Assembly: GCA_020137815.1 (NCBI GenBank)
Contig: CM035361.1
Span: 3,162,001 to 3,226,000 of the forward strand
DNA from: Hormiphora californensis
Lineage: Eukaryota > Animalia > Ctenophora
Length of the DNA: 64,000 bases
Direction of reading: 5' to 3'
Positions within the stretch are counted from its first letter, which is position 1. Every line of letters begins with the position of its first letter. The position numbers and the translations under genes were made by a program. Positions 27,863 through 63,523 of this stretch are shown here, one piece after another. The notes under the pieces are model-generated. The model saw only the letters and a list, made by a program, of their open reading frames with translations, did not search any database and was not told where the DNA came from.

Positions 27863-28064
27863 AGCATGGAACACTAAGAAGAATTGGCAAGTGTTATTTT
27901 CATCTAGCTGTCTATCCTTTTCTCACCAACTACCTCTGAGTTCAAAGATTCTGCAGTTGAAGCCGTTGAACTCGATCAATCAGTTGGGATTAAACTTGGG
28001 ATTAACTGATTGGACGCTAATTATTAGCGTACAATAAAACAGTCTAAGACTTGGAATTAGCAAG

Positions 28065-30957
28065 ATGTTTCGTCTTTTGATTCTACTAATCATAGCCGCT
28101 TGCTTCTGGAGATCTTCACTATGCTCAGGTTTGTTAAAAAAGTTCTAGACAGAGCTGTATAGATCTTTTAAAATCATAACTTTGGATTAATTCGTTAAAG
28201 ACTATTAATTAAAGAGGCATAAACATCCCTTTTTTAGATCAAGATGGTTGGATGGTGCTTGAGTTTGATGACGACATCTCATGGAAGTGGGAGGAGATAC
28301 CTCTCCAAATCAAGACAGATTCTGTGGTCGGAAGCGGTGATGAAATAAGTATCGATATGGGGAGACCAGATTACGTATCAGGAATCGTAATAGAATTCTC
28401 ATCTCCTATCAAGTTCTGGATGGCATACTGTACCTCTAAGGATGATGATACCCCAGATTTTTACGAAGACCTTCCAGTGCAGCCTCCTGATGAGGTCGAT
28501 AAGATCTGGACCTTCACTAAAACAGATTCGGCCCTAATCATCACTTGTAATGATGTAGAGGTTCTCAATTACGAATTTGCAACCAGTGAATTCAGCGATT
28601 GTGTTCCAAAATGGGGAGGAGATACCACCGATTACATCGAGTTTTATGAATCGTGGAATACAGCATCCGACTTCTACAGAGCAGGTAAAATCCCTTTCCT
28701 ATGAATAAATGTCTAATTTGACTAATAATAAGCAATTTTTTCCCTGCCCGGGTGGATGCCGAAGGCATCCACCCGGATGCCTTTTTACTTTGTAAAAAGG
28801 CATAGCAGGGTTAGAATTCGAAAACGACATTTTGGTATACTAACTAATCGGTAGAGGGACCATTTTGGTCACACTTTCGTTGCGAGGGGCAACACGGTAC
28901 CACCCGGTGTACTCAGCGTAGCAACTGAGCCGCGCACACAACAACAAGTTGCTCCTTTATCAAAACTTACAATGGCACAGTTTGATGGACGTGTATGCGC
29001 GTGCCACTCAACAAAACATGAATAGCGCTGCCGCGTGTTTCGCGTGTTACATACACATTGTCATCTTGCGAGTCGAGTGTGATAGGTTAGATAAGTAGTT
29101 AAGTTGGAATGTCAAAAGCTGGTTAGCAAGTGTCATGTGAGTAAACTAAGCTATGTGAGAAGTATACTGACAGCTAGATCGTATGCATCTCACATTACAT
29201 TATGACCTTGCCCGCGAGGGGATCGCCCTATGGGCGCGTGAACATGAGGGGATCGCCCTATGGGCACACAAACATGAGGGGCGTGACGTGCCCAAATTAT
29301 GACCAAGCCTTGATCCTGTTGACAGTGACACGTGAAACGGGAGGGCAGGGAAACACAGCATTATGAATACATAATGCAATGATTCTTGTTTGAGAAAAAT
29401 ATCACATCGTATCTTATTTTTCCAGAATATTGTCCAGGCTTCATGGTAAAAGGAACAAAGAAAGGCTCTTGGGATAAATCCACTGCTGGGGTAACAGTTA
29501 CTGTTGAATGTCTGGAAAACAAGGTTTTGAATAGGGAACCAATATTGACCTGTCAGAGTGATGGAACTTGGTCAAGTGGTATAGTTCCAGCATGCTATAC
29601 AATTGGTAAGTTCATTTTGTAAATTTCTGTGTCTTACAATGTTGTTCAGCTTAGCATTTATGTTATAGATACTTTAGTATAATTAACCAGTTCTAAGAAG
29701 CAAAATCTTTGATTTATTTCTGCATTTACCCGGATGCCTTATTGCTTGCGAGTTGCGATATTAACTCATATCATACCTAATGTATACCTTGCCTAGCTAG
29801 ACTCTGTTTCTGTAAAGGAGGGTTAGAACATACCTAATGTATACTGTTTGAGTGATATAATAACAAATAATTGTAAAAGTCTATCCCACCTTCACATTAG
29901 ATGGTTATGAAAGTAAAGTCGGAATTTTTGAAGTTTTCACCCCCCTGGGTGGCATACGAGTTTTTATTTGTGCGCCGGAAACTTGTTTCGGCTCTCACAC
30001 CTTTGTTTCTTGACCAATTTTGTCGAACAAAAGTTTTACGGACTCACAAAATTATGCTCTTTCCGGTGATATACGGCTTTTTGCCGAAAAGTGAGAGCAA
30101 GTGGGGGTTGTCACGCACAAATACGACGCCGCCCGTGAAAAGGGGGGTGACAACTTCAAAAAATCCGACTTTAAAGCATAGCATAATAGCATAATAGCAG
30201 TATTAAACATAATTGAGGTTTTTCTTGTTAGATGACGATTGGAAATTGCTTGAGTTTGATGACGACATCTCATGGAAGTGGGAGGAGATACCTCTCCAAA
30301 TCAAGACAGATTCTGTGGTCGGAAGCAGTGATGAAATAAGTATCGATATGGGGCGACCAGATTATGTATCAGGAATTGCAATACTATTCTCATCTCCTAT
30401 CAAGTTCTGGATGGCATACTGCAATTCTGAGGATGACACAACTTCAAGTGCAGTCTACACTGATCTACCAGTGCAGCCTCCTGCTGAGATCAATAAGATC
30501 TGGACCTTTAAAAAGACAGAGAAGGCCCTTATTATCACTTGTAATGGTGTTGAAGTTCTTAATTACAAATTTGCAACCAGTAAATTCAGCGATTGTGTTC
30601 CAAAATGGGGTGGAGATACCACCGATTACATCTTTTTTTATGTATCATGGAATACAGCTTCCGACTTCTACAGAGCAGGTAAAATCACATTCCTAGGAAT
30701 TAATTTCTAGTCTGGACTAATAATAAGCAATTTTCTGAAAATATTATATCGCGAATCGTCTCTTATTTTTCCAGAACCGAAGTCATGTCCTGGATTTGTG
30801 GTAGAAGGGTCAAAAGAAGGTTCTTGGGAAACTACTTCAACTGGGGTAACAGTTACTATTGAATGTCTGGAAAACCATGTTTTGAATGGAGCAGCAACAT
30901 TGACCTGTCAGAGTGATGAAACTTGGTCAAGTGAAGCACCAACGTGCCAGGAAGTTG
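28065..30957 (+). CDS. Cassette 1: leader + variable domain + Sushi + second variable domain + Sushi
   Basis: Exons 28065-28128 (MFRLLILLIIAACFWRSSLCS), 28238-28684, 29426-29605 (C..C..LTCQSDGTWS..P.C), 30232-30678, 30775-30957; all phase 1. Confidence 0.85.
28735..29390 (+). mobile_element. DINE-1/HINE-like element in a cassette 1 intron
   Basis: Same ends as 24012-24652 in the opposite orientation; inserted in the T-run of 'aataagcaatttt', which is uninterrupted in sister cassettes. Confidence 0.7.
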
Positions 30958-60800: not shown

Positions 60801-63523
60801 GATGGAACTATACAGGTCTGATTTTGCTTGTTATTATACTTGTTTTACCACCCTTTCCTTCAGAGGTTACATCATTGCCCGCTGCCAAGGAGTATGTGCA
60901 CTACGGGGAGGGTATAACCCTGACCTGTGACTGGAAGGTAGATACACTCGATGATACATACACCGCTACTACATGGACTATAACAGGGGGTTCCATTGTA
61001 GCAGAGAGCAACGCAGCCACCTCTAACCAGAATACCGGCAATAAAATACAGATGGTGTATGAAAAGGCAAACGCTGATATTACAAAGGCATCGGGAGATA
61101 CGTACAAGTGTGCAGTAACCATGACAACTAAGGATGATTTAGAAGCTACTACCGACCTCATGATTCATTGTACGTAAATCACACTAATGTTTTATAATAC
61201 GTGATTTAAAAGTGTCTAAACCAATTCATTATACCCTCCAGGGATAGAGCCACTGACATCTAACGCCTTTGAGATTAACACTGAAACATTCACCTGTAAA
61301 TACTCGGGTTCCACCGCTCCTGTATTTACCTGGAAAGTGGGGTCAACTACCGTTAGTGATGGAACCACATACGGGATAGCTCAGGATGGAGCTTGGGATA
61401 CTACCAACTATATGGAGAACAGTGTCCTTACTTTTAAAGACGACCTAGTATCTATCCAGGATGTCACAACTATTGACTGTGTGATCACATTTCATAGCAA
61501 CGATGATAAAATTTCCACTGACGTCCGACTTCACCATCGATGTAAGAGGGAGAGAGAGAGAGAGAGAGAGAGGGAGAGAGAAGGAGAGAGAAGGAGAGAG
61601 AGGGAGAGGGAGAGACAGAGCGAGAGACAGAGACAGAGACAGTGACAGAGACAGAGACAGAGACAGTGACAGAGACAGTGACAGAGACCTGAGACAGAGA
61701 CAGAGACAGAGACAGAGACAGAGACAGAGACAGAGACAGAGACAGAGACAGAGACAGAGACAGAGAATACTGTGACACTGACTATAAGCACAATAATTTT
61801 AACACGTCTTGTTCACACAGGGATACGTGCGTATAGCCAGAAAACCTATGCACTGGGTGGTCAAATAGTACTAAGTTGCACGATTTACTACGGCCGGAAT
61901 GGGGTGGCAACGACCGATGTCTCTTGGACTGGTATTCATGCGAGCGTCGATATTAGCAAGTACACAATTGACAAGGGTACTAATGCCAATGGTGAACGGA
62001 CCACAACCCTCACATTCCCCGACACCAATGACATCAACATTGATTCTACCTACACCTGCGAGTTCTCATTTGACGACTCTCCTGATCTTGATGCTTACAA
62101 GCAGACCATAGAGGTTGTCGTACGACGTAAGTACACATACTAGAATCTAGTATTACTATATTCACGGCCTTCAAGTTGTTTAATTACCCTCTCGCAACTA
62201 ACATGTCCTTCTTCTTTGCAGTTGCCCAGTCAGAGGATAACATCTTTGCACGAGAGGGAGATGCCAAGGTAGATCTGGAGTGTACCCTGTTGGGTTCAGA
62301 AACAGAGAACGGTGCAACTTGGACCACTGGTTCAACAACCATCACTACTGGAGGGGACTACACCATCACCACCACCGCCAAGAAAACTGTACTGAGTATA
62401 GCGAACCCTACCCATGATGAGAGAGATGGGGAGTACACGTGTAAATTCGACTTCGAAAATCAGCCCAATTTCTTCCCGACATCCGTCATCAATCTAGATG
62501 TCCTATGTAAGTAATTCGTTATGAGCAATCTAGTTGGCCACACATTTCTTTCAGGGTCGAGGTCATTTAGAAATTTAACTACATGTTATTACTTTGAATT
62601 ACATTTCAACCCTAGAAAGCTTCTCTCTCCTCTAATTGCCGAGATTTGCATGCCCACTCGTTTGAGTGTTTTCACGTCCTTCCCTTACTGTGTTTGGGTA
62701 CGGCACCCCTATTCGTCGCGAGACCTGTACTGTCGACTCAGAACGAAATAGAACCCCCTTCTCAGCGATAACAACTGAACCTCCCCTCCCCAGTGATAAC
62801 AACTGAACCTTCACCCTCCCCAGCGATAACACCAGGGCACCGTGATGTGATAACAGGCACTGAAACAGCACTGACATGCCTGGTAGAGGGCCAACAAGAC
62901 GCTGTCACTTTCCAGTGGACAGACAGTTCCTCCTCCGCAGTGACTTCGGGAGTAGTATCAGACACTGACATCACTAACAACGAACAGAAGAGTGTATTAA
63001 CGGTGATACCTATAACTGCGGACACCACTTATACGTGTGAAGTAATCGGAACAAACCCAGCGAATACCATCAAAACGACCATCAACGTTAGAATTTTTGG
63101 TAAGTTATATCTATACCATGTCATATTTTGTTGCTGATTTCTCTCATGAACCCCTGAAGTTGAAGTCAGGGATACATTTGCCTGGCTAGACTGTGTTTCG
63201 GGCGCCGCGCCCCCGAATCACCTTCCTACCTTTACAAATGTAAAAGGGATGGTTAGAACATATAACAAGGATACATGGCACACTGGATACATTACAATAA
63301 TGTCATGTTTTCATCTGAACCTTCCAATGTTATTCAATTTTTATTTCAGTGCCCTGTCCCGGTTTCACGGTTAATGGATCAAAAACAACAGTGCAGGACT
63401 CTGATCTGGATGTCATAGTAACTGTTGAATGTCAGAAGAAGCATGTTTTGAAAGGAACAGCAACATTGACCTGTCAGAGTGATGGAACTTGGTCGAGTGA
63501 AATTCCAACGTGTCATAGAGTTG
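57823..63523 (+). CDS. Cassette 5: leader + variable domain + Sushi + about 9 Ig-like domains + Sushi; may continue beyond the window
   Basis: Exons 57823-57886, 58152-58589, 58671-58850, [59024-59292 frameshifted], 59378-59539, 59636-59764, 60092-60493, 60598-60744, 60864-61169, 61242-61541, 61821-62126, 62222-62506, 62824-63099, 63350-63523. Ig hallmarks: L.C...W...L.....D.G.Y.C (e.g. LECTLL..ATW..VLSI..DGEYTC). All phase 1. Confidence 0.85.
59767..59903. mobile_element. Small intronic insertion with 11-bp flanking direct repeats and twin GC-rich GAA-loop hairpins
   Basis: aagtattccct at 59767 and 59893; ccgcaccgggcc-gaa-ggcccggtgcgg and ctacgcgaggccgc-gaa-gcggcctcgcgtag. Confidence 0.6.

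What the first reader, a model, noticed from the sequence alone, without database searches (positions are those of the whole stretch)
28020..63523. Array of variable leader-domain-Sushi cassettes upstream of an Ig block: candidate diversified recognition-receptor locus
Seen: five cassettes (ATGs at 28065, 42555, 49693, 51959, 57823), each with a near-identical 21-aa signal-peptide exon, a ~148-aa domain exon (six copies in total) and 1-2 Sushi exons. Every junction is phase 1. Cassettes 1-4 end in an open G|gtaag donor with no evident terminal exon, TM or GPI signal. The only Ig exons (59.0-63.1 kb, all phase 1) lie downstream of all cassettes. Known: clustered protocadherins and UGT1A use alternative first cassettes spliced to shared constant exons, and invertebrate immune or allorecognition loci (Hydractinia Alr, VCBP, FREP) are tandem variable Ig arrays. 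Inference: either any cassette splices onto a common Ig/Sushi constant region, or cassettes 1-4 are short secreted paralogs of a long Ig-bearing form. Either would be a variable recognition system in a probable ctenophore, which I do not know to be described.
Basis: partly seen in the sequence, partly recalled or inferred. Interest (0 to 1): 0.9.

Follow-up and report, generated by a model that had tools for sequence, protein, structure and literature searches.

The report
Comb jelly's diversified galectin-fold gene array
A comb jelly carries five tandem, likely separate genes for exported proteins built on an unnamed domain predicted to fold like a sugar-binding galectin, and the face that would bind a target varies most between copies, which points to a likely recognition repertoire rather than cassettes spliced onto one shared tail.

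Summary
The anatomy is real: five signal-peptide exons, six 145-148-aa domain (D) exons and nine Sushi exons, all phase 1, plus an Ig block. The shared-constant-region idea is unlikely. The Ig block sits inside cassette 5's own duplicated unit, and a Pleurobrachia bachei gene model has the same D-Sushi-Ig order (67% identity). Cassettes 3-5 lie in one 14,876-nt intron of an antisense DEAD-box helicase, 365 nt from its next exon. Bolinopsis relatives are separate loci, each with its own GPI-like tail. D has no Pfam family but is predicted at pLDDT 92 with a galectin fold (Z 9-10) and lacks the galectin sugar motif in 77 of 77 sequences. Its putative binding sheet is the variable one, and the six copies show a positive-selection signal (about 5% of sites, omega about 6; gene conversion weakens this). 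The profile matches 1,798 clusters; every named hit checked is a ctenophore. Best reading: a birth-and-death family of diversified, lectin-like exported binders. No usable RNA was found, so the 3' ends, the ligand and any immune role are untested.

The parts
28065..30957 (+). Cassette 1: SP 28065-28128, D 28238-28684, Sushi 29426-29605, D 30232-30678, Sushi 30775-30957; open donor. A mosaic: front half like cassette 4, back half like cassette 2
42555..45443 (+). Cassette 2: SP 42555-42618, D 44730-45170, Sushi 45267-45443; open donor. 5' flank and D-Sushi-intron start resemble the front of cassette 5
49693..50893 (+). Cassette 3: SP 49693-49756, D 49871-50317, Sushi 50399-50581 (in-frame TAA at 50440), second-type Sushi 50714-50893
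51959..53239 (+). Cassette 4: SP 51959-52022, D 52200-52646, Sushi 52731-52907, second-type Sushi 53060-53239; open frame
57823..58850 (+). Cassette 5 front: SP 57823-57886, D 58152-58589, Sushi 58671-58850
59024..59292 (+). Out-of-frame Ig exon, 90% nt-identical copy of 62824-63099; absent from the P. bachei model; likely skipped
59378..63099 (+). Ig block of cassette 5: exons 59378-59539, 59636-59764, 60092-60493, 60598-60744, 60864-61169, 61242-61541, 61821-62126, 62222-62506, 62824-63099 (eight Ig-like domains by exon pattern), all phase 1
   Evidence: collinear with P0007 up to 62506
63350..63523 (+). Last Sushi exon of cassette 5, same type as the last exons of cassettes 3 and 4; open donor. 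Whole cassette 5 without the broken Ig exon is a 1,056-aa open frame
63889..63976 (-). DEAD-box helicase exon on the far side of the 14,876-nt intron that holds cassettes 3-5
46185..49012 (-). Five 3' exons of the same helicase (49012-48850, 48685-48594, 47543-47446, 47090-46993, 46555-46185); the six exons join to an open 303-aa frame
   Evidence: Helicase_C E 1.4e-9; the name DDX49/DBP8 is recalled, not tested
31401..39561 (.). Two LINE-type retroelements between cassettes 1 and 2 (31401-33566 plus; 34960-38592 and 38596-39561 minus)
   Evidence: RVT_1 and endonuclease hits

Best explanation
The locus is a tandem array of five likely separate genes, each with its own leader exon and a domain predicted to have a galectin fold, carried on Sushi stalks (plus eight Ig-like domains in copy 5); they likely encode secreted or GPI-anchored binders whose target-facing sheet is likely being diversified by selection. 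Shown: exon structure, duplication mosaic, nesting of copies 3-5 in the helicase intron, family breadth. Predicted: fold, and which sheet faces the ligand. Inferred: each copy is made as its own mRNA (SL trans-spliced at a conserved AG 37 nt before the ATG); copies arise by unequal crossing-over, conversion and phase-1 exon shuffling, and some decay (copy 3, perhaps the 3'-open copies 1 and 2); the ligands are surface glycans or glycoproteins of microbes, parasites or prey. My odds: separate genes 0.8, diversified binding face 0.75, glycan ligand 0.5, immune role 0.4.
For: P. bachei model P0007 has D-Sushi-Ig in the same order as cassette 5 alone (67% over 892 columns); only 1 of 25 longer homologs carries Ig. 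Cassette 5 ends in the same Sushi exon and flank as cassettes 3 and 4. Helicase exons join without a stop, GT-AG at 5 of 5 introns; nested genes are common in a related genome (2,357 reported, PMC8527503 passages). 3 of 15 metagenome loci are intron-free and all 3 read SP-D(-D)-stalk-hydrophobic tail; two of them have similar but not identical terminal exons and UTRs; Bolinopsis P0107 and P0165 are different loci on scaffolds of different length with near-identical tails. Model pLDDT 92.4; 20 of the top 21 VIA rows are galectins or galectin-like lectins, Z 8.4-10.0, best rmsd 3.0 over 126 residues; Foldseek best E 4e-4, TM about 0.5. Entropy on the putative binding-sheet strands against the back sheet: 0.58 v 0.18 in six copies (p 0.006), 2.30 v 0.73 in 71 homologs. 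Site models: 2dL 15.9, omega 6.4 on 5% of sites, 45% of sites near omega 0; holds without gap columns and indel loops (p 0.0014); nine Sushi exons give no signal (p 0.38).
Against: No terminal exon was found for any cassette, and none of the 30 genome-based models scanned has a GPI-like tail, so anchoring in this subfamily is unknown; only 6 of 128 further representatives passed the tail filter. About half of the D codons fit omega 1, which also suits relaxed or dying copies; cassette 3 has a stop. Conversion is present (cassette 1 first D with cassette 4 D, p 0.0005) and inflates the test: 4 of 20 neutral simulations with conversion passed the nominal 5% mark, though 0 of 20 reached the observed value. 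The sheet labels come from strand order and recalled galectin topology, set after I had seen the alignment. The galectin sugar motif is absent (0 of 77), and a shared fold shows no function.
Confidence: 0.65

Rival explanations
1. Protocadherin/UGT1A-like locus: any cassette is spliced to the shared Ig block or to a shared membrane exon further on.
For: All junctions are phase 1 and the last donors are intact G|gtaag. Cassette 2 and the back of cassette 1 look like copies of cassette 5's front half, including the start of the intron that leads to the Ig exons, and have no 3' end of their own that I could find.
Against: The Ig block is inside cassette 5's unit; 11, 9, 6 and 3 acceptors lie between the donors of cassettes 1-4 and the first intact Ig exon (6-28 kb, against introns mostly under 750 nt); cassettes 1 and 2 would span five antisense helicase exons; only 365 nt remain before the next helicase exon; relatives keep private tails.
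Confidence: 0.08
2. One long gene with nested alternative promoters: each last donor splices to the next D exon, giving a ladder of D-Sushi chains that share one 3' end.
For: Phases allow it; cassette 1 already holds D-Sushi-D-Sushi; multi-D models exist in P. bachei and Bolinopsis.
Against: The stop in cassette 3 would cut all longer forms unless that exon is skipped; LINEs and helicase exons intervene; some P. bachei multi-unit models hold internal leader-like stretches, which suggests fused predictions.
Confidence: 0.1
3. Only cassette 5 (perhaps 4) works; the rest are decaying partial duplicates, and the variability is relaxed constraint.
For: Stop in cassette 3, broken Ig exon, no terminal exons, about half of codons at omega 1.
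Against: All six D exons are open with 84 of 151 columns invariant, 45% of codons sit near omega 0, all splice sites are kept, and the variation lies on one sheet in the window and across the family.
Confidence: 0.15
4. The proteins are not immune but adhesive or prey-capture lectins (tentacle, colloblast), or a homophilic cell-identity code.
For: Sushi domains and signal peptides are enriched among Mnemiopsis colloblast candidates (PMC6278862, passages and supplement rows). Identity to P0007 rises from 60-69% in the front exons to 86% in the last shared Ig exon, as expected of a stalked surface protein.
Against: I could not tie those candidates to this family: no checksum match, and their Sushi mostly starts near residue 200, later than in SP-D-Sushi. 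Ctenophores including P. bachei fuse readily, against a self/non-self histocompatibility code. This rival shares the gene architecture of the best reading and differs only in role.
Confidence: 0.3

Closest known systems
P. bachei 'putative secretory peptide' -20, -26, -39 to -43, -48, -52 and uncharacterized Mnemiopsis and Bolinopsis models
   Same: Same D domain; -26 (P0007) has cassette 5's architecture and -42 (P0027) the same leader.
   Different: Deposited names give no fold or function; window copies show no one-to-one orthology with the P. bachei copies in a quick tree.
Galectins (galectin-3, -4, -8, GRIFIN, sponge and fungal galectins)
   Same: Predicted two-sheet fold of the same size, top of both structure searches.
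   Different: 4-16% identity, no sugar motif, a signal peptide, cysteines, Sushi/Ig stalks and a hypervariable rather than conserved concave sheet (conserved site recalled).
Gastropod VIgL proteins (FREP, CREP, GREP) and amphioxus VCBP (recalled)
   Same: Secreted, tandem, diversified; GREP joins Ig and galectin domains.
   Different: Here the lectin-fold domain is N-terminal and is the variable part; Ig occurs in one copy only; no homology shown.
Clustered protocadherins and UGT1A (recalled)
   Same: Tandem leader-bearing cassettes with compatible open donors.
   Different: Cassettes have several exons, the Ig block is private to copy 5, and no shared TM or cytoplasmic exon is in view.
Hydractinia Alr cluster (recalled)
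   Same: Tandem family of variable extracellular proteins in a non-bilaterian.
   Different: Alr are single-pass Ig proteins controlling fusion; no TM here, and ctenophores fuse readily.

Membership tests
Protocadherin/UGT1A-type variable-constant locus | Each variable unit has its own start | tested here: inconclusive
   Own leader exon and a conserved AG 37 nt before all five ATGs; no transcription-start data
Protocadherin/UGT1A-type variable-constant locus | Variable unit is a single first exon without competing acceptors (recalled) | tested here: not met
   3-5 exons per cassette, 3-11 acceptors to skip
Protocadherin/UGT1A-type variable-constant locus | Constant exons lie outside and behind all variable units | tested here: not met
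   Ig block lies between cassette 5's two Sushi exons; one D-Sushi-Ig model in P. bachei
Protocadherin/UGT1A-type variable-constant locus | cDNA junctions from each unit to shared exons | not testable with these tools
   No RNA holder listed; the one run laid gave no joints
Galectin | Galectin beta-sandwich fold | tested here: met
   On a predicted model: Z 10.0, rmsd 3.0, 126 aligned; Foldseek E 4e-4
Galectin | Sugar-binding sequence motif (recalled) | tested here: not met
   0 of 77 for either half of the motif; no galectin Pfam hit in 77
Galectin | No signal peptide (typical, recalled) | tested here: not met
   Hydrophobic 21-aa leader in 5 of 5 cassettes; judged by eye, no predictor run
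Galectin | Binds beta-galactosides | not testable with these tools
   Needs a binding assay
Alr-type allorecognition receptors | Single-pass TM protein with N-terminal variable Ig domain (recalled) | tested here: not met
   N-terminal domain has a galectin fold; no TM exon found in the window, though sequence beyond 64 kb is unseen
VIgL/VCBP diversified lectins | Variable Ig domains joined to a C-terminal lectin domain (recalled) | tested here: not met
   Order reversed and Ig in 1 of 5 copies
VIgL/VCBP diversified lectins | Binds microbes or parasites, induced by challenge | not testable with these tools
   No expression or binding data
GPI-anchored proteins | C-terminal small-residue site, spacer and hydrophobic tail | tested here: inconclusive
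   Seen by a simple hydrophobicity rule in L005, L009, L010, P0107, P0133, P0165; not found for the window's copies

The most novel reading that the evidence does not exclude
Probability: 0.35. Interest if true: 0.85.

Novelty: new variant of a known kind. Interest (0 to 1): 0.58.

Why it matters
How ctenophores tell microbes, prey and self apart is open. A recent survey searched 20 standard Pfam immune domains (PMC11797021, passages; 'galectin' occurs 0 times in its main text), so a family with no Pfam model would be invisible to it. This locus gives a fold, a candidate binding face and named variable residues for a domain that matches 1,798 clusters. That makes the question directly testable by glycan arrays, single-cell expression and microbial challenge. 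If it holds, it is an independent origin of a diversified receptor repertoire on a galectin scaffold.

Tried and rejected
No whole genome is held, so nothing beyond 64 kb or elsewhere in the genome could be seen. RNA: no RNA holder listed; the single run X1 gave no cassette contigs beyond a 41-nt Sushi-like piece, and no joints, on 44600-51050 or 61790-64000; its contig over a helicase exon differed at 15 of 100 letters, so it may not represent this genotype; no evidence either way. D-D complex prediction: no answer. Search for longer relatives of the Ig block: none among 7,975 candidates scored, weak evidence. Pfam and PDB sequence search name nothing for D. ESM Atlas gave bacterial and phage sandwich domains as leads only. 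PDB sequence searches with two helicase exons were uninformative or weak (DDX54, E 1.4), so the helicase call rests on Pfam and the open joined frame. Terminal-exon scan and tail searches found nothing above control; the 70-nt block behind the last Sushi of cassettes 3-5 has no shared reading frame (read by eye). Link to colloblast candidates not made. The careful tree did not finish; the quick tree used 68 domains from a chosen subset, dropping partial domains. Eight paper searches listed no description of this family; subscription papers, including the P. bachei genome paper and its supplements, were not searchable. Earlier scan notes held nothing relevant.
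Full report
Observation. Five 64-nt leader exons start at 28065, 42555, 49693, 51959 and 57823; six D exons encode 145-148 aa at 68-85% mutual identity; nine Sushi exons follow; all junctions are GT-AG and phase 1. 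Four of four Sushi exons scanned pass the Pfam cut-off, and the eight Ig-block references were not all scanned: seven were, and they gave weak Ig-family matches, mostly under the cut-offs. Cassette 5, without one broken Ig exon, reads as 1,056 aa with no stop. Three lesions or corrections: a TAA at 50440 in cassette 3, an out-of-frame Ig exon at 59024-59292, and a last Sushi exon at 63350-63523 that lies behind the Ig block.

Organism. No genome is held. The best named hits are Pleurobrachia bachei proteins at 66-72% identity, with Mnemiopsis at about 35%. The window is therefore likely from a Pleurobrachia-group ctenophore other than P. bachei (inference).

Is the Ig block shared? Four results argue against it. 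First, self-comparison shows that the last Sushi exon of cassette 5 with its flanks (63308-63714) copies the end of cassette 3 (50667-51060), and cassette 4 ends alike; so the Ig exons sit inside one duplicated unit. Second, P. bachei model P0007 has D, Sushi and seven Ig-like domains in the order of cassette 5, 67% identical over 892 columns, going straight from Sushi to the exon at 59378; it is a genome-based model, not a cDNA, and 1 of 25 longer homologs carries Ig. Third, six minus-strand exons of a DEAD-box helicase join to an open 303-aa frame with GT-AG at 5 of 5 introns; the first intron, 14,876 nt, holds cassettes 3, 4 and 5, and its far exon begins 365 nt behind the last donor. Cassettes 1 and 2 lie beyond the helicase's 3' end. 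Nested genes are common in Hormiphora (PMC8527503, passages), so nesting is ordinary; interleaving beyond the helicase exon is not excluded. Fourth, relatives keep private ends. Three of 15 metagenome loci are intron-free; two begin with the end of the ctenophore spliced leader given in that paper; all three read leader, D (one or two), stalk, hydrophobic tail. L005 and L010 have near-identical leaders, patchily divergent D exons, and terminal exons and UTRs that are similar but differ by substitutions and indels. Bolinopsis P0107 and P0165 are distinct loci on scaffolds of 21.3 and 23.6 Mb with near-identical tails. Against my reading: cassette 2 and the back of cassette 1 resemble copies of cassette 5's front half with no 3' end of their own, and I found no terminal exon for any cassette. 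Most P. bachei models also stop at such donors, so short terminal exons may simply be hard to see. The RNA test failed.

The D domain. It has no Pfam family (0 of 77 members) and no PDB sequence match. AlphaFold2 gives pLDDT 92.4 and an all-beta sandwich. Foldseek ranks galectin domains first (E 4e-4, TM about 0.5), and VIA-align gives galectins or galectin-like lectins in 20 of the top 21 rows, best Z 10.0 with rmsd 3.0 over 126 residues, modestly above the Z 7-8 that unrelated models reach. The galectin sugar motif (recalled) is absent in 77 of 77. It works like a galectin scaffold at most; it is not a member. The profile matches 1,798 clusters at 50% identity; of 20 looked up, 10 carry names and all 10 are ctenophores; the rest have no taxonomy, so 'ctenophore-only' is not shown. 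Four Mnemiopsis members share one scaffold with near locus tags. Stalks vary: Sushi, Ig, cysteine-rich repeats, TSP1, LDLa.

Diversification. Assigning strands to the two sheets by recalled galectin topology, the sheet that binds sugar in galectins is the variable one: entropy 0.58 against 0.18 in the six copies (permutation p 0.006) and 2.30 against 0.73 in 71 homologs, with alternate residues varying most, as for an exposed face. This partition was set after viewing the alignment and no residue-level superposition was available. Mean dN/dS is 0.53. My own site-model code gives M1a against M2a 2dL 15.9, omega 6.4 on 5% of sites, with top posterior sites 134, 70, 138 and 132. It holds without gap columns and indel loops (2dL 13.1) and is absent in the nine Sushi exons. 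Conversion is evident between two copies, and simulations with conversion passed the nominal mark in 4 of 20 but reached the observed value in 0 of 20; the signal is likely real but weaker than its nominal p. In a quick tree the six copies fall in one strongly supported subfamily with five P. bachei domains and six unnamed ones, without one-to-one pairs, as expected of birth-and-death turnover.

How it likely works. Each copy would be transcribed and SL trans-spliced on its own (a conserved AG 37 nt before all five ATGs, where five-way similarity begins; inference), exported by the leader, and would present D on a Sushi or Sushi-Ig stalk, soluble or GPI-anchored. Phase-1 symmetry lets unequal exchange add, drop or swap modules. 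Selection on one sheet yields copies with different specificities; some copies decay. The ligand is inferred to be foreign surface glycan (0.5). Immunity (0.4) and prey capture or adhesion (0.3) both remain open. Allorecognition is disfavoured because P. bachei forms chimeras (PMC11565835, passages). Colloblast candidates are rich in Sushi proteins (PMC6278862, passages and supplement rows), but I could not link them to this family.

Novelty. Members are deposited as 'putative secretory peptides' or uncharacterized proteins. Eight searches of the held library listed no description of the family (listings only, apart from the four papers read in passages). Diversified lectin arrays are a known kind; this scaffold and lineage appear to be a new variant. 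Verdict: observation partly confirmed, shared-constant model unlikely (0.08), diversified galectin-fold family likely (0.65), interest 0.58.

Noticed in passing
window 20311-26750, minus strand: Exons of an acyl-CoA oxidase-like gene (ACOX_C_alpha1 E 2e-8); it appears to start just left of cassette 1, head to head.
   Followed up: partly
window 4500-8150, minus strand: Exons of a rhodopsin-family GPCR (7tm_1 E 1.3e-5).
   Followed up: partly
window 34960-39561, minus strand: LINE with an open 1,211-aa endonuclease-RT frame and an upstream ORF bearing a GDSL-like esterase match; may be young.
   Followed up: partly
window 59378-62506 against P0007: Identity to the P. bachei model rises along the Ig stalk, from 60% to 86%, so the distal domains evolve faster.
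   Followed up: partly
L005:300-400 and L010:1-40: One contig keeps genomic-like sequence and the other a spliced-leader end at the same AG about 27 nt before the ATG: trans-splicing seen in this family.
   Followed up: partly
window 40169-41545 and 54545-55534; 41862-42410 and 44115-44649: Repeated non-coding elements shared between inter-cassette spacers; possible substrates for unequal exchange.
   Followed up: no
P0133 and P0226-P0232: A Bolinopsis five-D protein with a GPI-like tail and at least 12 annotated isoforms that differ by a few residues.
   Followed up: no
window 11545-11808, minus strand: A short frame that reads like a signal peptide followed by a hydrophilic stretch; gene not identified.
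   Followed up: no
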